Shown: positions 19,600-29,289 of the stretch, piece after piece
Numbering within the stretch: the stretch's first letter is position 1
How the letters are laid out: each line of letters begins with the position of its first letter
Origin: Escherichia phage moha
Length of the DNA stretch: 64,000 bases
Strand: one strand, 5' to 3'
Sequence record: MN850590.1
Translations under genes and position numbers: made by a program
Notes under the pieces: generated by a model
Seen by the model: only the letters and a program-made list of their open reading frames with translations
The model's database searches: none
Told to the model about the DNA's origin: nothing

Positions 19600-20925
19600 A
19601 TGCAATTGAATTCTCGTAATCTAAAAAGTATTATTGATAACGAAGCCTTAGCATATGCGATGTACACCGTTGAAAACCGTGCAATCCCAAACATGATTGA
19701 TGGATTTAAGCCGGTTCAACGTTTTGTGGTCCATCGTGCGTTAGATTTGGCTCGTGGTAATAAAGAAAAATTTCATAAACTTGCGTCAATTGCAGGCGGT
19801 GTTGCAGATTTAGGTTATCACCATGGTGAATCTTCTGCACAAGATGCAGGTGCATTGATGGCTAACACATGGAACAACAACTATCCACTGTTAGATGGCC
19901 AAGGCAACTTTGGTTCTAGAACAGTCCAAAAAGCTGCAGCATCTCGTTATATTTTTGCTCGTGTAAGTAAAAATTTCTATAACGTATATAAAGATACTGA
20001 ATATGCTCCAGCTCATGAAGATAAAGAACACATTCCACCAAAATTTTATCTTCCTATTATTCCGACAGTTCTTTTGAATGGCGTCTCTGGTATTGCAACC
20101 GGTTACGCAACAAATATTCTGCCTCATAGTTTTAAATCAGTCAAAAAGGCTGTATTACAAGCTCTTCAAGGTAAAAATGTCACTAAGCCAAAAGTTGAAT
20201 TCCCGGAATTCCATGGCGAAGTACATGAAGTTGATGGGCGTTATGAGATTCACGGAACATATAAGTTCACATCTCGCACTCAAATGCAGATAACTGAAAT
20301 CCCATATAAATTCGACCGTGAAACGTATGTGAGTAAGGTTCTTGACCCATTAGAAGATAAAGGTCTAATCTCATGGGAAGATGATTGTGGTGAACACGGC
20401 TTTGGGTTTAAGGTGAAGTTCCGTAAAGAGTACTCGCTTCCAGATGACGAAGAGCTACGTCATGAAAAAATCATGAAAGATTTTAGTCTCATCGAACGTC
20501 GTTCACAAAACATCACAGTGATTAATGAAAAGGGTAAATTAGCGGTCTACGATAATGTAGTAGACTTAATCAAAGATTTTGTTGAAGTCCGTAAGACTTA
20601 CGTTCAGAAACGTATTGACAACAAAATCCTTGAATCTGAAAAAGCATTTAAACTGGCTTTTGCTAAGGCGCACTTCATCAAAAAAGTTATCAACGGTGAA
20701 ATTGTGATTCAGGGCAAGACTCGTAAAGCTTTGACTGAAGAGCTAGCACAAATCGAAATGTATAAAGAACATGTCGATAAACTGGTAGGTCTTAACATCT
20801 TCCATATCACTTCCGACGAAGCACGTAAACTAGCAGAAGAAGCTAAAGCTAAGAAAGAAGAAAATGAGTATTGGAAGTCTACTGATGTTGTGACAGAGTA
20901 CACTAAAGACTTGGAGGCACTTTGA
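19600..20925 (+). CDS. 52: DNA topoisomerase II medium subunit (GyrA-like)
   Basis: GyrA-like N-terminus NMIDGFKPVQRFVVHRA; 441 aa. Confidence 0.9.
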   Translation: MQLNSRNLKSIIDNEALAYAMYTVENRAIPNMIDGFKPVQRFVVHRALDLARGNKEKFHKLASIAGGVADLGYHHGESSAQDAGALMANTWNNNYPLLDGQGNFGSRTVQKAAASRYIFARVSKNFYNVYKDTEYAPAHEDKEHIPPKFYLPIIPTVLLNGVSGIATGYATNILPHSFKSVKKAVLQALQGKNVTKPKVEFPEFHGEVHEVDGRYEIHGTYKFTSRTQMQITEIPYKFDRETYVSKVLDPLEDKGLISWEDDCGEHGFGFKVKFRKEYSLPDDEELRHEKIMKDFSLIERRSQNITVINEKGKLAVYDNVVDLIKDFVEVRKTYVQKRIDNKILESEKAFKLAFAKAHFIKKVINGEIVIQGKTRKALTEELAQIEMYKEHVDKLVGLNIFHITSDEARKLAEEAKAKKEENEYWKSTDVVTEYTKDLEAL

Positions 20926-21001
20926 GTGCCCTAGCCTTAGGATTTCTCGGTGCAATAGCTGTACTAGTGATTTGGCTGTATTGGTTGGACAAACATGATT
21001 A

Positions 21002-21023
21002 GGGAGCTTCGGCTCCTTTTTTG
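21002..21023 (+). terminator. intrinsic terminator
   Basis: ggagc-ttcg-gctcc then TTTTTT. Confidence 0.7.
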
Positions 21024-21043
21024 TGCATTTTTCTCACAAAACA

Positions 21044-21072
21044 GTTTACATGTGCTTCAAACATGATATTAT
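21044..21072 (+). promoter_or_regulatory. T4-type early promoter
   Basis: GTTTACA, 17 bp spacer, TATTAT; upstream of motA. Confidence 0.6.
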
Positions 21073-21111
21073 AGACCTATCAAAACAAAACAACCAAATT
21101 GGAGAAATAAA

Positions 21112-21744
21112 ATGTCTAAAGTTACTTACATCATCAAAGCTTCTGAAAACGCTCTGAATGAAAAAACTGCTGCAATAATGGTTTATATCATTAAGAACAA
21201 CTTCACCACTGCTGCCAATGTCCGTGAAGCTCTGGAAGCGGAATACAATGCATCAGTTGTTAACTCTAACATTGGTGTATTGATTAAGAAAGGTTTAGTC
21301 GAAAAATCCGGTGATGGACTTATAGCAACAGGCGAAGCAATGGATATTATCCAAAAAGCTGCAGACCTATTTGCTCAAGAAAATGCTCCAGAACTTCTTC
21401 AGAAACGTAACACCAGAAAAGCACGTGGAGTTACTCCTGAAATGCATGAACTAGCAAACTTTGTTTTTGAAAATATTAAAGATAAAGTTGAAGTTAAAGA
21501 AATTGGTGAAAACCGTAGTAACTTAGAAGTTCGATTTGCAAAACGAGTTCTAGGTATTCGTCAGATCGAAATTCGTCGAGATGGCGCTCTTAGAATCTTT
21601 GCATACAACATGTCAGAAACTGAATCAAAACTGTTTACTTCTCTTGAAAATGATGTTAAGATTAAGATCGGTGGTAAATATACTTACATTGACTTCCCTA
21701 ATGTGTCCAAAGAAATCATTACCCTTGTAACTAACGTACTGTGA
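21112..21744 (+). CDS. motA: MotA middle-transcription activator
   Basis: 210 aa; N-terminus MSKVTYIIKAS...VNSNIGVLIKKGLVEKSGDGLI matches T4 MotA as remembered. Confidence 0.9.
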   Translation: MSKVTYIIKASENALNEKTAAIMVYIIKNNFTTAANVREALEAEYNASVVNSNIGVLIKKGLVEKSGDGLIATGEAMDIIQKAADLFAQENAPELLQKRNTRKARGVTPEMHELANFVFENIKDKVEVKEIGENRSNLEVRFAKRVLGIRQIEIRRDGALRIFAYNMSETESKLFTSLENDVKIKIGGKYTYIDFPNVSKEIITLVTNVL

Positions 21745-21754
21745 GGAATACATA

Positions 21755-22084
21755 ATGAATAAGCTGAATATTATTAACGAACTTCGTAAATGTGCAGAAC
21801 CTACTCAGGAAGGATGGGATATTTGGTACCACGGGGCTTATTTAGGGACAATTGTAAAGATTAAAGCAGGCCAATATACGGTTATTCGTGAAAATAATGA
21901 CGCGCCATTTGGCCTTCGTAAAAACTACATGGCCGCGATCAGTTCATTTGTTGATGCAGCTTATGAAATCTATAAAGAAGATTATAAAGAATATCAGCAG
22001 TCACAACCGGTTATTCGTTCAATTGGTGTTAACAAAGCTCAGCAGAAAACTTTGTGGCAACGTATTAAAGGATGGTTTAAATGA
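21755..22084 (+). CDS. hypothetical protein
   Basis: 109 aa. Confidence 0.5.
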
Positions 22085-22542
22085 AAACTTTTAAAGAACG
22101 TTTAGCTCTGTTAGATAAAGCTTTGTCGCGTGAGACTCCGGAAAGTCTGGCTGCTAAATTAGCTTCTTACGGTGGTGAATATACAGAACAAAATGTTTTA
22201 GATGAAGTTCCTGAAATCTGTTGGCAGACTCTGTATTGGGATGAAAACCAAAAGTATCAACGACGAATTGTCTGCGCAGCCAACCGTTTTAAATTAAAAG
22301 ATGGACGAACTCTTATTATTCCAGGTGCTCGTCATTATTCTAAAGATATGGCAGAAGTTTTAGATGTAGTTAAACCTCAATTAGTTACTCAACAAGTTTG
22401 TGATGATGACCAAGGGTTTATTGACCAGTATAGTAATTATTGGACACGTGAAGAAGCAATGATTATTGCAACTTACGCTGGACAAGTACGTATTGAACGT
22501 GGTGGTAATGAAAAAGAACTTTACTCTGAGGACCTTTACTAA
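22081..22542 (+). CDS. hypothetical protein
   Basis: 153 aa; ATGA overlap. Confidence 0.5.
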
Positions 22543-22823
22543 TGAATCTTAAACAACTCCAGATTGATGCTATTGAAGCCCACATTAATCATATCAAACG
22601 CCTGAATGCTATGATGGAAGAAAATTATGGTATGTATGCTAATCAGCCTGGTTGGGATGCTTTAGACCATCCTTATTTGGTTAATTTATGTAAAGGTGAT
22701 ACGTTAGCAATTATTCGTGATGGGTTAAAACCTTTCTTGCGCGACATGTATATTAAAATGAACGAAGAAATTATTAGCTCGTTTCAATATCAATTAAGGA
22801 AATTAGACGATGAGAATAATTGA
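22542..22823 (+). CDS. hypothetical protein
   Basis: 93 aa; TAATG overlap. Confidence 0.5.
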   Translation: MNLKQLQIDAIEAHINHIKRLNAMMEENYGMYANQPGWDALDHPYLVNLCKGDTLAIIRDGLKPFLRDMYIKMNEEIISSFQYQLRKLDDENN

Positions 22824-23034
22824 TTCTAAAGCAGATTATTTTAATTCTGTTAATGATAAGAATAAAGCTTTAATTCGTCACTTTATTACTGAGATGGGAT
22901 ATACTGACTCTAAAGATTTGAAAGAGCACATTATCGAATGTTCTGTGGCTAAAAAGTTTTCTTTCACAGACAAATGTTTAAATGAGGTTATAAATCATTA
23001 TGAACAATCTTGTAGCAAAACACGATTTCAATAA
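22810..23034 (+). CDS. hypothetical protein
   Basis: 74 aa. Confidence 0.4.
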   Translation: MRIIDSKADYFNSVNDKNKALIRHFITEMGYTDSKDLKEHIIECSVAKKFSFTDKCLNEVINHYEQSCSKTRFQ

Positions 23035-23108
23035 GGCTTCTGTCCATAAGGACAAAAAGAAATCAGAACTTCAATCTAAACGTAAACAAAAACATAAGGG
23101 TAAAGACT

Positions 23109-23408
23109 ATGCTTACTAAAATCAAAGAAAATCCTGCCACTGAACTTGTTATTCGATGTGAAGAACTTGCAGAGCTTTATCAGGTTAACCGAGAAGTGTG
23201 TCGTAGTGTTATCGTAGATATGGAAGATGAAGTCTGTTCTCGTATTCCTTTTAGTGTCGATTTCAATCACATGAAGCCCGGTGAAATCACTATCGTCTTT
23301 GGTTCTGACTATACTGAAGAACGGGCTCTTAACGTCCTAGAATATGAAATGTCGTTTTTCGACATACAGGACTATATTGATAGTTATAAGGAACGATATG
23401 AGTCATAA
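23109..23408 (+). CDS. hypothetical acidic protein (at the position of T4 arn)
   Basis: 99 aa, acidic; position upstream of asiA. Confidence 0.4.
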   Translation: MLTKIKENPATELVIRCEELAELYQVNREVCRSVIVDMEDEVCSRIPFSVDFNHMKPGEITIVFGSDYTEERALNVLEYEMSFFDIQDYIDSYKERYES

Positions 23409-23559
23409 TCTTCAGAACGTAGTAGAGGCCGAACGTGAGCGTGAGGCTTTAGTCTATAATGAACTATTAGTTCAATTCTTGGTCTTACACTCGTATGAAC
23501 AGGAAGACTATACCAATTACGTTAAAAGCGTAGAAAAAGCCGTTTACAATCAACACTGA
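23398..23559 (+). CDS. hypothetical protein
   Basis: first ATG in ORF-track 23344..23559. Confidence 0.35.
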   Translation: MSHNLQNVVEAEREREALVYNELLVQFLVLHSYEQEDYTNYVKSVEKAVYNQH

Positions 23560-23605
23560 TAATGGTACTATATCCATATCAACTAAGTGGAATGAATAAA
23601 ACGTT

Positions 23606-23878
23606 ATGAATAAAGATATTGAAATCGTACGTGAAATTATTACTATTGCTTCTATTTTGATTAAATTCTCTAGGGAAGATATTGTTGAAGACCGAGCAAG
23701 TTTCATCGGATTCTTGAATGAGATTGGAATTAAAAAAGATGGTCGGCAGCTAAATCAGAATTCGTTCAGAAAACTAATTACAAATTTAACTGCCGAAGAA
23801 AAGAAAACACTGATTAGTGAATTCAATGAAGGTTTTGAAAATATTTATCGTCATTTAGCGATGTATTCTAACAACTAA
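23606..23878 (+). CDS. asiA: AsiA anti-sigma-70 factor
   Basis: 90 aa; near-identical to T4 AsiA as remembered. Confidence 0.92.
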   Translation: MNKDIEIVREIITIASILIKFSREDIVEDRASFIGFLNEIGIKKDGRQLNQNSFRKLITNLTAEEKKTLISEFNEGFENIYRHLAMYSNN

Positions 23879-24538
23879 TTATTTAGCCCTTCCTAGTATT
23901 CGGACCGCTTGGTTGCATATAGCCGCTAAGCGATCTTCCTCAAGTATATTATTCCCCTTATACCAATACATCGTCACAGTTCCAGCATAGATGTTATCCA
24001 AATTAAAGTATGGACAACTATACATATAAGAAAGTTCGGCAGTCTTAGATTTTGTAGGCAAAAATGCAAATTCTGATTTAGATGAGAAATGACGGCCACT
24101 TAAATGAATTATATATTCATTGGCCGTTTTATCCACCGGGAATCCGCCAAGGGACTTTTCAGAAATTGTGCTAGGTAGTTTGCCTTCATAAGCTATAAGG
24201 TCGACAAAATAATTTAAGTTTTTAGGTCTGAAAGAATACACAGCACTAAAATCTGCACCAGATGAGATATGAACTATTTGCAGTTGTTCTAGAGCCGCAG
24301 ATTCAAAACGTAAAGCTCGTTCTTTTTGGATTATTTCAGTATAAGTATCATACTTAGCTCTTACATAATAATCCAGCAAAATACTTCCTTTGTACCATAT
24401 TAGTGCCATTAGGAACAAAAGAATAATTACCGCTACTCGGGACATTAAAACCTTTCCAGTAGCGTTATCTTTGAAAATACGATCTAGCAACCCAAATAGA
24501 ATATCACTAGGCGAAAATGACACTTTTGGTGTTGCCAT
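23879..24538 (-). CDS. t: holin T
   Basis: 219 aa; N-terminal TM region and overall sequence match T4 holin T as remembered. Confidence 0.92.
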   Translation of the reverse strand: MATPKVSFSPSDILFGLLDRIFKDNATGKVLMSRVAVIILLFLMALIWYKGSILLDYYVRAKYDTYTEIIQKERALRFESAALEQLQIVHISSGADFSAVYSFRPKNLNYFVDLIAYEGKLPSTISEKSLGGFPVDKTANEYIIHLSGRHFSSKSEFAFLPTKSKTAELSYMYSCPYFNLDNIYAGTVTMYWYKGNNILEEDRLAAICNQAVRILGRAK

Positions 24539-24547
24539 AATACCTCC

Positions 24548-25099
24548 TTACTTAAAGATATTTATAATCGCTTTGATAATAGATTTGTTTTCAAGGTCAG
24601 GGAATTTAGGGAATTCACCGCCAAGATGTTCATGTTTTTCTAAAAGGGCAAAGAATTTTTTGAGCTCTTTAAATTTTCGTTTTTCTTCTCTATTAGCAAC
24701 CTCTGCGTCAATAAGAGAACTTAAAACACTGAATAATTTATAGAGTTCATGAATTTTCTTATCACGTTGAACTACGCGTTTATATGCTTCATCTTCCTTC
24801 CACCCGTCACCGGTCCAAATGTCAAATTCACCAGGTTCTTCTGTAGTAACATTTTGAAGAGCACCTGGAGTGTCAATAACAATTTTTTGCTTATCATAAG
24901 TCCATACTGTTTTTCCACGATGGTCTTCAACATACACCCATTCTTGTTCGCGTTCATCAAATAAAACAGCATAGCCTTCTTTAGGGTCTAAAGGTTTTTT
25001 AGATGTCGAGTGAGCTGGAAGACCCATACCTTTAATCGGTTTGTAATTTTCTTCTTTGTAAAATTCTTTAGTGTCAAAATAATAATGATATATTTTCAT
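24548..25099 (-). CDS. 38: gp38 long tail fibre assembly chaperone
   Basis: 183 aa, same length as T4 gp38; immediately downstream of gene 37. Confidence 0.8.
   Translation of the reverse strand: MKIYHYYFDTKEFYKEENYKPIKGMGLPAHSTSKKPLDPKEGYAVLFDEREQEWVYVEDHRGKTVWTYDKQKIVIDTPGALQNVTTEEPGEFDIWTGDGWKEDEAYKRVVQRDKKIHELYKLFSVLSSLIDAEVANREEKRKFKELKKFFALLEKHEHLGGEFPKFPDLENKSIIKAIINIFK
24559..24566 (-). promoter_or_regulatory. late promoter TATAAATA for holin t
   Basis: minus strand reads TATAAATA inside the 3' end of gene 38, about 20 nt upstream of the t RBS. Confidence 0.5.
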
Positions 25100-25104
25100 A
25101 TTTA

Positions 25105-25120
25105 GAAGGGGCCGAAGCCC
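25105..25120 (-). other. UUCG tetraloop RNA hairpin between genes 37 and 38
   Basis: aggggc-cgaa-gcccct on plus strand; no T-run. Confidence 0.5.
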
Positions 25121-25126
25121 CTCTCC

Positions 25127-28100
25127 TTATGCTAAACGAACGATATAGTTAAAAGCAACGTTTTTAACTGTGTTTTCTGTATTTCCTGTGGCATTTACAG
25201 TTATTGTATGTCCATGGGAACCAATCGCTACCGAATGAGAGTGGGCACCAATACCTACAGTATGTGTATGGGCACCGATACCCACAGTATGAGCATGGTT
25301 ACCTGTGGTACTTGTAGTTCCTGACCAACTATGGGTGTGGGCACCATCTGAAGAAGTTTTGGCCATATTCGACGATGCAGTAGCACCGCTCACGGTTGCA
25401 GTGAATTTAGCGTTGCCGTTTGGACCCGCACTATTGTATCCATCATAGAATATGCTAGTGGGTATGCCGCCTTGTACCTGAGGACCTGAACGCGCGTGTT
25501 GGTGCGCACCAGCGGAACTAGTATTACCACTCACTGTATGGCTATGGTTGCCAGTGGTATTACTGGTCTTAGTACCATAATCAAAGCTTGAAGTCGTTTT
25601 GCTACCGTAATCAAAACTAGAAGTGGTCTTAGTACCCAAATCTGTGCTTGATGCACTTGCACTATGGCTATGTGACTTAACACCGTCTGCTTCTGTACTC
25701 AATACATCACGCCCAGATGGTTTACCCTTAATAGTTTGCCCACGCATATCAGGAATAGTACCTGTTGGATACGCTGCCGCTAGTTTAGGATATGCAGACT
25801 TATCAAAGGTTTGACCTTCCATTAAAGCGAACCCGGCTGGAACTGAATCACTTGGCCATGGAATCGGAGCACCGACTGGATAAGGTATTTGAGCATCAGA
25901 ATACATCATATACACTTGACCAACGAGATGACCAGCGGGTAATTCTGTTACTGGTGTTTGATATCCACCATTAAGTCCAATTACCGAAATATAACGGGTA
26001 TTTTCTGTGGCGTCATATTCAACTATAAGTTTGTCTGCATAAGTCCCAGCATACAGATAAACGTCATAATCATCACCGGAGGTATTAATTGTTGCTATAT
26101 TAGTAAATCCATTACCCGTGCGCCCCCATAAAGTGGCGTTAATACCTTTAGGATTGTTATTACTGGTACGAAGAACTACTTCAGTAATTGTAGCCTGTTC
26201 TGGTGAATTGGCATTATATCCATTACCACCTATAATCTTAAATTGGACGGTAGAAACTGATTGTGGCATAGTTACAGTAGCAAATTTATACCATCCTGCA
26301 GTTGAACTACCGGACCAAGTTCCGACCTTAACTCTACGTTCTAAAGTTGTGTTCAGGTTAGCAAAATTACCAGAACCACCTGTGATGTTACCATCGGTTC
26401 CAATCTGGGTTGAACCTATTCTAAGAGGTTTAGCTATATCAACCGTATCAGAGTTTAATGCAATACCATGGGAGTAGGTGTAACTATGCATACGAACGAC
26501 GTTTCCGCCATCGCCAATACCCAAATACCATTTTGTGACATCTGCTTTACGTCCTTGGATGAAGTTAGAAGACTCTTGTGTTGGAGCATTTATTCTAATA
26601 GCATCTGATGCTGTATTTATTGTTATACGCTGACCTGCTGTAGTACCGGATGCTTCTACTTTAAATCTACCGCCACCGATATCTACATCATGATCCATGG
26701 AAACTTTACCATTACTTAATGCAATATAGAACGGACGTAAATTAGAAATACCACCTGTTTCACCAGCGTTCTGCGGAGTTGGAATAATATAAAGCTTATC
26801 TTCAGAACGACGGAAAATAGCACCATATTCGGCATTCCAAATTCTTAATGCATCTGCTGTTCCACCAAATTTAGCTTGTCCGTTTACAGATAATCCATTA
26901 TTTGCAACTAAACTTGATTCACTAACAATAGAACCGGCCGATATAATACCACCACCCACACGTAAAGCGCCGGAAATTCTAAATTGGAGAGAACCGACAG
27001 TTTCAGAACCTGTTGGAGCTAAACGTTGAGAATAAAAATGATAGCCCTGGCCGTCATACAATTCAAATACGGTTTCACGATTACCGGCAGTGGAGTCGAA
27101 TGCATTACCCCAAGCTTTCATAGTTAAATAACTTTTATTTTGTCCTGCACGGGACCCGGCATTCCACTGGATAGTTCTCGAGCCATCAACTTTGCTAGGG
27201 GCGCCAAATTTAAGTCCTGCAGTATTATTAGAACTATTTAAAAATAATTCGTTGTCCAATTTAACAGGTTGGATAGAAGAAATAGTGCCATCAGCATAAA
27301 ACTGTACATTATTAGAGCCAGTTACCAATTTCAAAATACCCGGGTTAATTTCCATACCTTCCTGTGTATTAATGTTGGTTTGGCCTTTACCACGGAAATA
27401 ATGGGAAAATTTACCGCCAGAATTATATCCAATGTGGGTTTGACCATCACCTGCATTGTTTGTATCAGCCTGGGTTTGAACCGATAAAAGCGCGGCGTTG
27501 ATTCCAGGCATGGTCCAGGTTCCGCCTTGGTCTTCTGAGCGTCCAAATAACGCTTTACGAGTACTACGGAAACTGTCAGGTGTAATAGAAGCAACAGAAT
27601 TCCAATTACCTACTAAATCATAAACGCCTTGCTTAATATATTTTAAACCAGTTGCAGCATCGCCCAAAGCAATATATCTTTCTCCCATTGGAGTAGGAGA
27701 GCCGTAGTTGTTAGTATTTTCGTCAGCAGTAATTGTGCCAATAGCAAGTGAACGACGTAATACCATTGCTCCATCATTACGAAGACCCATTAATTTAGTA
27801 GTAAGTGTATTTCCGGTCCACCAAGAAATTTCATCATTCTTACCAGTTTGAGCTGAAGCGATTTCATGGTAAATGGTTCCACCTGATTTAGCTCGAACTT
27901 TACGAAGATAGTTTATACCATTTTCTTCACCTGTTCCAGGATAAACATATTGAACTAATGACTGCGAATCGTATTGTCCAAATGCTTTTGTGTCTAAAAC
28001 AATGGTTTTCGTATTAACTTGTGGAGCAGAAACTATACCATTAGCGGAGTTAATATTGCCTGACGCAGAAATATTACCTTTGCTGACAAATAAATCACCA

Positions 28101-28618
28101 GTGTCAACTTGGAAATTACCATTACGATTAAAAGTCCAATATTTCGAATCCCCAGTTTCATCAATATAATGGAACTTAAAACTGCCTTCAGCAACCAATG
28201 TACCCGCTGAAAACGTACCATCTTTATAACGTTGCTTAATGAGTGGATGATATTCTGAAATAGAAGTAGTTGAACTTAAATCTGTAAAGATAGGAGCTTT
28301 ATTTAGGTGTTGATTTGCCCACGCGCCATTACCAGCTGTTTTAGGTAAAAATTCAATATATTTTCCTGCATAAACAAACTGATTTCCATTGAGATTATAT
28401 GTGCCGTTTTGTAAATAATCACCATTTTGAGTTACATTACCGTTAATATCCCCGCCCTTAGCAAAGCCTAGGCTAATAATATTACCGAGGTCATCTTTAG
28501 TAAAAAGAGTTCGATCTTTTAAGTTTATCGCTAATTCGCCTTCGGCTAATTGTGCTGCAGTAGGATTAACTCCTGCCACTTTGCTTCTTTTAAATTGTAT
28601 CTGTTTTAATGTAGCCAT
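25127..28618 (-). CDS. 37: gp37 long tail fibre distal subunit (receptor-recognising)
   Basis: 1163 aa; C-terminal His-x-His repeats and terminal [11 protein letters not shown]. Confidence 0.92.
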
Positions 28619-28626
28619 AAGTCCTC

Positions 28627-29289
28627 TTAATAATAGCCGAAATCTTGAACAGAATCTTTAATTACAATCTGGTCGAAACGAGGAACATGATTAGCCTCAG
28701 ACGCCGGATTCTGTGAGAAAAAGTTTGGTGCTGTTAAAGTACCAGTCATGGTATCGCCTTTACGCAATACACGAGAATTTGCGTTATCCGTAACAATATT
28801 TATTCGTCCATCAACATAATCTTTTCTTGTGAGATCATTTGCTGCAACCGGAGCAGTAGCGTTAGAACGGACAGGACCAATTGCATAAAAACCGCCCTTA
28901 GTGCTGATATCACCGGTACGAGCGTTAATTACAACAGTTCGGTCTGCTGAACCTTGTGATGACTTAAAACCAATACCATTCCACGAAACGATGTCAATAT
29001 TTGCCATATCAAAAGTAGCTGCATCACCGTTACCTGGATAAACACCACACTGTTGACTACTACCTACAGTAGGAACATGTACTCCTCCATTAAATCGAAC
29101 AGTTGCAGCGTAAGTACCACCATTAGCTTTAGAAACGAAATCGTTATCAGCCGCTTGTGGTTTATTATATTCTGAATAGAGTTTAAACGTTTTATACAGG
29201 ACGTCATCACCTGCTGGCATTAAAGGGAAATTACCTTGATGCCATATGACAGCACCGCCAGTTGTACTACCAGCTTTTAAATCGGCCAT
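28627..29289 (-). CDS. 36: gp36 long tail fibre small distal subunit
   Basis: 220 aa; between 35 and 37. Confidence 0.8.

What the first reader, a model, noticed from the sequence alone, without database searches (positions are those of the whole stretch)
25127..25900. Extended gp37 tail fibre tip with His-x-His boxes and a short tandem repeat
gp37 is 1163 aa, about 137 aa longer than T4 gp37. The C-terminal region has many G-x-H-x-H boxes (GNHSHT, GAHQHA, GAHTHS, GNHAHT, GAHTHT, GAHSHS, GSHGHT), of the kind that coordinate metal ions in the T4 fibre needle, and a direct repeat [20 protein letters not shown]. This is the receptor-binding end, so receptor specificity probably differs from T4. 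gp38 is the 183 aa chaperone type.
Basis: partly seen in the sequence, partly recalled or inferred. Interest (0 to 1): 0.4.

Follow-up and report, generated by a model that had tools for sequence, protein, structure and literature searches.

The report
Ordinary mosaic T4-type tail fibre tip
This is the receptor-binding end of the long tail fibre of a T4-like coliphage (Escherichia phage moha): a new shuffle of modules already known from other phages, and it most likely binds the porin OmpC, as its relatives do.

Summary
gp37 (25127-28618, minus strand) is 1163 aa, with eight H-x-H motifs (seven are G-x-H-x-H) in the last 185 aa, a [20 protein letters not shown] tandem repeat, and a 183-aa T4-type gp38 chaperone downstream.

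- **Length.** Only 37 of the 137 extra residues over T4 lie in the tip: a 10-aa repeat, one extra 9-aa H-x-H unit and 18 aa in the tip loop. Another 143 come from a beta-sandwich "knob" cassette (aa 760-906) inserted before the collar. This is offset by a shaft module 48 aa shorter than T4's.
- **Not unusual.** The eight-site stem with the repeat is present in all nine Mosigvirus T4-type gp37 examined and in lambda Stf. In 29 sequences the repeat and the extra H-x-H unit always occur together, so I infer a needle one metal layer longer.
- **Tip allele.** The tip loop is identical to phage vB_EQ1 and 50/51 to p000v. It is 40/51 to JK36 and 39/51 to TP3, whose primary receptor is experimentally OmpC, as for every assayed T4-type tip.
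- **Identity.** The protein is exactly QHR68339.1 of Escherichia phage moha.

Verdict: a mosaic of known modules, of low interest.

The parts
25127..28618 (-). gene 37, distal long tail fibre subunit, 1163 aa; exact match to QHR68339.1 of Escherichia phage moha
26339..26602 (-). shaft module resembling the T7 gp17 pyramid domain (about aa 673-760), ending in the [14 protein letters not shown] motif; T4 and JS09 carry a different, longer module here
   Evidence: Pfam PF20744 E 1e-11; PDB 4A0T E 2.6e-6; T4 and JS09 gp37 do not match PF20744
25901..26341 (-). knob cassette, aa 760-906: an all-beta domain inserted where p000v, JK42, JS09 and T4 have a 16-residue linker between the motif and the collar; main source of the extra length
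   Evidence: indel boundaries; 99-100% DNA identity to AV117, absent from p000v, JS09 and AV118; 159 cluster representatives; AlphaFold2 pLDDT 82.9, pTM 0.81; fold matches
25676..25882 (-). collar domain (T4 domain D10), N-terminal part, aa 913-981
   Evidence: Pfam PF07484 Collar E 5.8e-12 at aa 916-963; aligned to 2XGF
25496..25675 (-). descending strand of the needle stem, aa 982-1041, with three H-x-H (His983, His1025, His1039)
25574..25633 (-). 10-aa tandem repeat [10 protein letters not shown] / [10 protein letters not shown] (aa 996-1015), 23/30 nt identical
   Evidence: two copies in 9 of 9 Mosigvirus alleles and in lambda orf-314
25343..25495 (-). tip loop, the presumed receptor-contacting subdomain: 51 aa between the 3rd and 4th H-x-H (aa 1042-1092), against 33 aa in T4
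   Evidence: 51/51 identical to vB_EQ1, 50/51 p000v, 48/51 JS09, 40/51 JK36, 39/51 TP3, 9/51 T4
25181..25342 (-). ascending strand of the needle stem, aa 1093-1146, with five H-x-H (His1094, 1108, 1117, 1126, 1135)
25205..25303 (-). array of four H-x-H units spaced 9 aa apart ([33 protein letters not shown]); T4 has three
   Evidence: Tandem Repeats Finder period 27 at 25214-25298
25130..25180 (-). C-terminal strand returning to the collar ([17 protein letters not shown]), aa 1147-1163
25100..25126 (-). gene 37-38 spacer: GGAG, then a GGGGC-UUCG-GCCCC hairpin, then the AUG of gene 38; same as T4 apart from one extra C
24548..25099 (-). gene 38, T4-type tail fibre assembly chaperone, 183 aa; sequence identical to JK36 gp38
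   Evidence: Pfam Caudo_TAP; 68% identical to T4 gp38

Best explanation
This is the C-terminal receptor-binding module of a T4-type distal long tail fibre (gp37) of a Mosigvirus, Escherichia phage moha.

How it most likely works: three chains, folded with help from the gp38 chaperone encoded just downstream, form a collar. From the collar a six-stranded needle projects. Each chain runs down to the tip and back up. Each H-x-H triplet from the three chains forms one octahedral metal (iron) site on the needle axis.

This allele has eight such sites, one more than T4. A 10-aa duplication in the His-free part of the descending strand is matched by one extra 9-aa H-x-H unit in the ascending strand, so the stem is one layer longer (about 10 residues, roughly 3 nm). 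The 51-aa loop at the distal pole is the variable receptor-contacting part and most likely docks on the OmpC trimer, with the LPS inner core (Kdo) serving the short fibres.

The gene is a recombinational mosaic. The N-terminal third is common to Mosigvirus. Successive shaft segments are closest to vB_EQ1, then JS09, then vB_EQ1 again. The knob cassette is closest to AV117. The tip is the p000v / vB_EQ1 / JS09 allele.

Shown here: the homology, motif counts, mosaic structure and covariation. Inferred: metal binding, the needle geometry and the receptor.
For: Family: 2XGF (T4 gp37 tip) matches aa 907-1163 at E 2.6e-80. The Collar domain, a Caudo_TAP gp38, the holin t and gp36 lie in T4 gene order. 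gp38 is 68% identical to T4 gp38.

Metal sites: eight H-x-H against a chance expectation of 0.6-1.3, with 0 of 20,000 shuffles reaching eight. T4 has seven irons at its seven H-x-H, with the stem at residues 882-931 and 960-1009 and the tip at 932-959 (Islam 2019).

Register: counting residues from the tip, T4 sites fall at 0, 7, 14, 21, 30, 39, 46 and the window's at 0, 7, 14, 21, 30, 39, 48, 56. The new site fills the space opened by the duplication.

Covariation: in 28 tips the distance between the first and second H-x-H is 32 with three 9-spaced units (15 sequences) or 41-42 with four (13 sequences), with no mixed state. Lambda orf-314 also has the long form.

Mosaic: sliding DNA identity.

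Receptor: JK36, TP3, JK42 and JK45 (Mosigvirus) give ompC and ompR as top hits in genome-wide screens and are assigned OmpC plus Kdo. AV117 and AV118 are OmpC-dependent. All 17 T4-type tips assayed are OmpC-specific. Lambda Stf also binds OmpC. moha was isolated on K-12 MG1655.
Against: No experiment on moha itself was found. The closest tip loops (vB_EQ1, p000v, JS09) have no published porin assignment that I could find. For JS09 only LPS was shown to block infection, and that study did not say which fibre binds it. JK36 and TP3 differ at 11-12 of the 51 tip-loop residues, enough in principle to change OmpC-variant or LPS dependence. The one-layer-longer geometry rests on sequence register and covariation. 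The 28-29 sequences are phylogenetically related and no trimer structure was computed.
Confidence: 0.8

Rival explanations
1. One reading: the longer, unrelated tip loop gives a primary receptor different from T4's, for example another porin or LPS alone.
For: The tip loop is 51 aa against 33 in T4 and only 9/51 identical. JS09, with 48/51 identity in the loop, is blocked by purified LPS. T4 itself can use E. coli B LPS when OmpC is absent.
Against: Very different tip loops (T4, AV117, AV118, JK42, JK36, TP3) all map to OmpC. The screen of 73 Straboviridae found OmpC for all 17 T4-type tips; the other porins were assigned to phages with gp38 adhesins, which this phage lacks. JK36 and TP3 carry the same allele family (40/51 and 39/51).
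Confidence: 0.15
2. The knob cassette (aa 760-906) is a second, lateral binding site, for example for a surface glycan. The fibre would then have two specificities and the extra length would be functional for host range.
For: The cassette is a discrete present-or-absent unit among otherwise near-identical fibres. Its predicted beta-sandwich resembles domains placed N-terminal to the catalytic domain in tailspikes and EPS depolymerases: WceF 6TGF at E 2.9e-6 and the AM24 and Fri1 tailspikes, plus many tail fibre proteins in BFVD. The module just upstream of it aligns to the T7 gp17 pyramid domain, which in T7 precedes the receptor-binding tip domain.
Against: No binding site or ligand-binding family was detected, and no Pfam family covers the domain. 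The same domain sits mid-shaft in T2-type gp37 (ime09 aa 651-894 of 1282) and occurs twice in one protein, which fits a structural bead. AV117, which carries a 99-100% identical knob, needs OmpC, as does JK42, which lacks the knob.
Confidence: 0.1
3. The tandem repeat and the extra H-x-H unit are recent slippage events or assembly artefacts with no structural meaning.
For: Short tandem repeats in repetitive tail fibre genes are prone to slippage and misassembly.
Against: The decapeptide copies differ at 7 of 30 nt, almost all synonymous. Both features are present in nine independently sequenced Mosigvirus genomes, lambda orf-314 and diverged prophage fibres. The protein is identical to the GenBank entry.
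Confidence: 0.01

Closest known systems
T4 gp37 C-terminal receptor-binding domain (PDB 2XGF; collar D10 plus needle D11)
   Same: Collar, needle with axial H-x-H metal motifs, C-terminal NYIVRLA strand, downstream 183-aa gp38 chaperone, same gene order.
   Different: Eight H-x-H instead of seven, two copies of the [10 protein letters not shown] decapeptide instead of one, a tip loop of 51 aa against 33 with 9/51 identity, and a 143-aa knob cassette in front of the collar.
gp37 of Mosigvirus phages p000v, vB_EQ1, JS09, JK36 and O157 typing phage 3
   Same: Identical stem architecture (eight H-x-H, two repeat copies) and the same tip-loop allele family: 51/51, 50/51, 48/51, 40/51 and 39/51 identical. 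JK36 and TP3 are experimentally OmpC plus Kdo.
   Different: Only vB_EQ1 also carries the knob. No record in the phage collection exceeds 92% DNA identity over the whole gene, and the protein is alone in its 90% cluster.
Phage lambda side tail fibre Stf (orf-401/orf-314) with Tfa, and prophage Stf-like fibres
   Same: Homologous collar and needle. Lambda orf-314 has the same two-copy decapeptide repeat and eight H-x-H, and Stf binds OmpC. Many prophage fibres place the same knob domain directly before the collar.
   Different: Different N-terminal attachment and shaft. Lambda orf-314 lacks the knob motif, and its tip loop is only 12 identical residues over a 60-column alignment.
T7 gp17 C-terminal domain (PDB 4A0T) / Pfam PF20744 gp37_trimer
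   Same: aa 681-782 align to the gp17 pyramid domain and the first strands after it (E 2.6e-6; PF20744 E 1e-11).
   Different: In T7 this region ends the fibre and carries the receptor-binding tip. Here it is internal and is followed by the knob, collar and needle.
T2/T6-type distal fibre (gp37 with C-terminal Peptidase_S74 chaperone plus a gp38 adhesin of about 260 aa)
   Same: Shares the pyramid-plus-knob shaft module at 60-68% identity.
   Different: This phage has no S74 domain and no gp38 adhesin; its gp38 is the 183-aa chaperone.

Membership tests
T4-type gp37 receptor-binding tip (2XGF-like collar plus needle) | Sequence homology across the whole collar-needle module | tested here: met
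   phmmer against PDB: 2XGF E 2.6e-80, aa 907-1163 aligned to chain residues 23-242
T4-type gp37 receptor-binding tip (2XGF-like collar plus needle) | Phage tail collar domain at the base of the needle | tested here: met
   Pfam PF07484 E 5.8e-12, aa 916-963
T4-type gp37 receptor-binding tip (2XGF-like collar plus needle) | Series of H-x-H motifs on both stem strands at regular spacing | tested here: met
   Eight motifs, three descending and five ascending, at register 0, 7, 14, 21, 30, 39, 48, 56 against T4's 0, 7, 14, 21, 30, 39, 46
T4-type gp37 receptor-binding tip (2XGF-like collar plus needle) | Iron (or other metal) bound octahedrally by six His at each site in a trimer | not testable with these tools
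   Needs a trimer structure or metal analysis; inferred from T4
T4-type gp37 receptor-binding tip (2XGF-like collar plus needle) | Dedicated gp38-type chaperone (about 183 aa) encoded immediately downstream, not an adhesin | tested here: met
   183 aa, Caudo_TAP, 68% identical to T4 gp38
T4-type gp37 receptor-binding tip (2XGF-like collar plus needle) | Primary receptor OmpC (and/or LPS) bound by the tip loop | not testable with these tools
   Inferred from JK36, TP3, JK42, AV117 and AV118 data
T2/T6-type fibre tip (gp38 adhesin) | gp38 of about 260 aa with glycine-rich motifs and hypervariable segments; gp37 ending in a Peptidase_S74 chaperone | tested here: not met
   gp38 is 183 aa and Caudo_TAP; gp37 has no S74 hit. 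Compare ime09, with gp38 of 264 aa and gp37 of 1282 aa, and S74 in T2-type representatives
Pfam PF20744 gp37_trimer / T7 gp17 pyramid domain | Profile match above the curated cut-off | tested here: met
   45.1 bits against a cut-off of 21.7, aa 673-747; 4A0T E 2.6e-6
Tail fibre knob domain (no Pfam family; shared with T2-type gp37 and prophage Stf-like fibres) | Sequence homology over about 145 aa and a confident all-beta fold | tested here: met
   159 cluster representatives at E<=1e-3; AlphaFold2 pLDDT 82.9, ten strands; BFVD match to JK38 gp37 at TM-score 0.88

The most novel reading that the evidence does not exclude
Needle length in the gp37/Stf family may be set in whole metal-site layers. 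A decapeptide repeat on the descending strand and a 9-aa H-x-H unit on the ascending strand must be gained or lost together; I saw no mixed state in 29 sequences. I did not find this rule stated in the papers I read. Separately, the present-or-absent knob cassette in front of the collar could be an auxiliary glycan-binding site that changes host range without touching the tip.
Probability: 0.15. Interest if true: 0.4.

Novelty: new member of a known kind. Interest (0 to 1): 0.15.

Why it matters
It matters little beyond annotation. It predicts OmpC plus inner-core LPS as the receptors of phage moha. It also shows that gene length is a poor guide to tip novelty in T-even fibres, because most of the excess here is a shaft cassette. 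Two points could help people who engineer T4, lambda or Mosigvirus fibre chimeras. First, the two stem strands change length together. Second, the knob is a clean cassette bounded by the conserved [14 protein letters not shown] motif on one side and the conserved collar on the other.

Tried and rejected
- **Word-indexed protein search on the knob** returned one partial hit and was useless. The exhaustive representative search was needed.
- **Trimer or monomer model of the needle:** not run. The structure tool predicts single chains and returns no coordinates, so it could not test the register model.
- **Receptor data for the closest tip alleles** (p000v, phiEC1, vB_EQ1, mogra, JS09): I found only the JS09 LPS-blocking study.
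- **Search for an identical tip in the phage collection:** the best listed DNA match to 25127-25900 is 93.7-93.8%. One record at >=99% is counted but never listed; I take it to be the source genome.
- **Rejected readings:** a T2-type adhesin system, recent slippage or an assembly artefact for the repeat, and the knob as a remnant terminal receptor domain (it is mid-shaft in T2-type fibres).

Full report
**1. What is at the coordinates**

The minus strand between 23.9 and 29.3 kb carries, in T4 order:
- gp36 (28627-29289)
- a 1163-aa ORF (25127-28618)
- a 183-aa ORF (24548-25099)
- the holin t (23879-24538)

Their Pfam matches are Phage_T4_gp36, Collar plus gp37_trimer, Caudo_TAP and Phage_holin_T.

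The long ORF is gp37. An exact-sequence look-up shows it is QHR68339.1, 'putative long tail fiber protein' of Escherichia phage moha, and the only member of its 90% identity cluster. moha (MN850590) is a Mosigvirus isolated on E. coli K-12 MG1655 from Danish wastewater; the paper describing it does not discuss its fibre. The rest of the window is 98.5% identical to the Mosigvirus JK42.

**2.

- **Length.** T4 gp37 is 1026 aa, so the excess is 137 aa.
- **Boxes.** The seven G-x-H-x-H boxes are all present, and an eighth H-x-H (KSHSHS) lies next to the collar.
- **Significance.** Eight H-x-H compares with 0.6 expected for the whole protein and 1.3 when only the His-rich last 185 aa are shuffled. 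None of 20,000 shuffles reached eight.
- **Repeat.** The decapeptide repeat is at aa 996-1015 (window 25574-25633). The copies share 9/10 residues but only 23/30 nucleotides, with five synonymous and one non-synonymous codon difference. It is therefore old and under purifying selection.
- **H-x-H units.** Tandem Repeats Finder detects the 27-nt periodicity of the H-x-H units at 25214-25298.
- **gp38.** It is 68% identical to T4 gp38 and the same length.

**3. Where the 137 extra residues are**

I counted between landmarks shared by all alleles: AIFRRSE, the [14 protein letters not shown] motif and GAPIPWP.

| Segment | Window (aa) | T4 (aa) | Difference |
|---|---|---|---|
| N-terminus to AIFRRSE | 599 | 594 | +5 |
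| AIFRRSE to end of GNITGG motif | 157 | 205 | -48 |
| Motif end to collar | 159 | 16 | +143 |
| Collar to C-terminus | 248 | 211 | +37 |

Only 37 residues lie inside the finding's coordinates. They are the 10-aa duplication, one extra 9-aa H-x-H unit and 18 residues in the tip loop.

The 143 residues are a discrete cassette (aa 760-906). p000v and JK42 have just a short linker at that point (...[26 protein letters not shown]).

**4. The shaft module and the knob**

aa 673-760 match Pfam PF20744 and the pyramid domain of T7 gp17 (PDB 4A0T, E 2.6e-6). T4 and JS09 gp37 do not match PF20744.

What the searches showed about the knob:
- It has 159 cluster representatives in an exhaustive HMMER search.
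- It lies mid-shaft in T2-type gp37, for example ime09 aa 651-894 of 1282.
- It also occurs in prophage side-fibre proteins carrying phage_tail_N, Phage_fiber_2 and Collar domains, often directly before a [10 protein letters not shown] collar and needle. One protein has it twice.
- No Pfam family covers it.
- An AlphaFold2 model from a 19-sequence alignment is confident (pLDDT 82.9, pTM 0.81) and all-beta with ten strands.
- Foldseek finds the N-terminal domains of WceF (6TGF, E 2.9e-6) and of the Acinetobacter phage tailspikes AM24 and Fri1. In BFVD it finds many tail fibre and EPS-depolymerase proteins.

I read the knob as a structural bead of the shaft. A binding role is not excluded, but nothing supports it.

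**5. The gene is a mosaic**

Sliding DNA identity gives these best matches:

| gp37 residues | Closest relative (DNA identity) | Notes |
|---|---|---|
| 1-350 | all Mosigvirus compared (about 90-100% over most of it) | dips to 63-87% around aa 100-200 |
| 350-450 | vB_EQ1 (95-99%) | |
| 450-590 | JS09 (93-97%) | vB_EQ1 only 59-69% here |
| 600-750 | vB_EQ1 (97-100%) | |
| 750-925 | AV117 (99-100%) | absent from p000v, JS09, AV118 and T4 |
| 975-1100 | vB_EQ1, p000v, JS09 (95-99%) | AV117 only 40-59% |
| about 1100-1150 (H-x-H array) | none better than 83-91% | |
| gp38 | 86-100% to the Mosigvirus relatives | |

Several junctions fall in conserved stretches: the GNITGG motif, the collar and the His boxes.

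**6. The stem with eight sites is the common form**

All nine Mosigvirus T4-type gp37 that I extracted have eight H-x-H and two decapeptide copies. These are the window, vB_EQ1, p000v, JS09, JK36, JK42, TP3, AV117 and AV118. T4 has seven and one. Lambda orf-314 (Stf) also has two copies and eight H-x-H.

In T4 the stem is residues 882-931 and 960-1009, the tip is 932-959, and seven irons lie on the axis (Islam 2019). Counted in residues from the tip, the sites fall as follows:
- T4: 0, 7, 14, 21, 30, 39, 46
- Window: 0, 7, 14, 21, 30, 39, 48, 56

The extra ascending unit sits exactly in the gap opened by the descending duplication.

Across 28 tips, the distance between the first two H-x-H is 32 with three 9-spaced units (15 sequences) or 41-42 with four (13 sequences), and never mixed. 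The long-form group includes diverged sequences whose repeat reads differently. Lambda makes a 29th sequence, also of the long form.

I infer a stem one metal layer longer. This rests on register and covariation, not on a structure, and the sequences are not phylogenetically independent.

**7. Receptor**

The tip loop between the 3rd and 4th H-x-H is 51 aa. Its identity to other alleles:

| Phage | Identity to the window's tip loop |
|---|---|
| vB_EQ1 | 51/51 |
| p000v | 50/51 |
| JS09 | 48/51 |
| JK36 | 40/51 |
| TP3 | 39/51 |
| JK42, AV117, AV118, T4 | only 9-16 identical residues |

A prophage Stf-like representative, P0020, is 23/51 identical.

Experimental evidence on relatives:
- Genome-wide fitness screens give ompC and ompR as top hits for JK36, and ompC, envZ and ompR for JK42. 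They assign OmpC (primary) and Kdo (secondary) to JK36, JK42, JK45 and TP3 (preprint supplement).
- AV117 and AV118 are OmpC-dependent.
- All 17 Straboviridae with T4-type tips in that screen are OmpC-specific despite 'extensive allelic variation' in the tip.
- Maffei 2021 makes the same generalisation.
- Lambda Stf binds OmpC.
- For JS09, only blocking by purified LPS is reported.

OmpC is therefore the best prediction. Differences in which OmpC variants are recognised, or in LPS dependence, are possible.

**8. Verdict**

The features are real but ordinary. This is a T4-type fibre tip of a common Mosigvirus allele, in a gene that is a new combination of known modules and already deposited. 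The title 'extended tip' is misleading, because three quarters of the net excess is a shaft cassette. The suggestion of a receptor different from T4's is not supported.

Noticed in passing
window 25100-25126 (-): The gene 37-38 spacer reads GGAG-A-GGGGCUUCGGCCCC-UUCUAAAU-AUG. A stable UUCG-loop hairpin sits between the Shine-Dalgarno sequence and the start codon of gene 38. T4 has the same spacer with one C fewer. From memory, this is the split ribosome-binding site known for T4 gene 38.
   Followed up: partly
window 25901-26341 (-): The 147-aa knob domain has no Pfam family, although it has 159 cluster representatives in tail fibres of T-even phages and lambdoid prophages. One protein (P0004) carries it twice.
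   Followed up: yes
window 25170-25320 (-), gp37 aa about 1100-1150: DNA identity to every relative drops to 83-91% in the H-x-H repeat array, while the flanks are 97-100% identical to vB_EQ1. This could reflect conversion or recombination among the 27-nt units.
   Followed up: no
window 24548-25099 (-): gp38 is identical in sequence to JK36 gp38, although the two gp37 differ: JK36 has no knob and is 40/51 identical in the tip loop. The chaperone appears to tolerate different tip alleles.
   Followed up: partly
L011 (lambda) 2030-2974: Lambda orf-314 carries the same two-copy decapeptide repeat ([20 protein letters not shown]) and eight H-x-H. T4 and most of the prophage Stf-like representatives sampled have the shorter seven-site, one-copy form.
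   Followed up: yes
Each search of the phage collection counts one record at >=99% identity that never appears in the ranked list. I take it to be the source genome (moha, MN850590).
   Followed up: partly
window 19600-23878 (+): Upstream on the other strand there are ORFs of 441 aa (19600-20925), 210 aa (21112-21744) and 90 aa (23606-23878), with several small ORFs between them. By sequence they look like a topoisomerase subunit, MotA and AsiA. In the syntenic relatives the matching positions are annotated as DNA topoisomerase, MotA, a set of small anti-restriction (arn-type) or hypothetical genes that varies between phages, and the anti-sigma factor.
   Followed up: no
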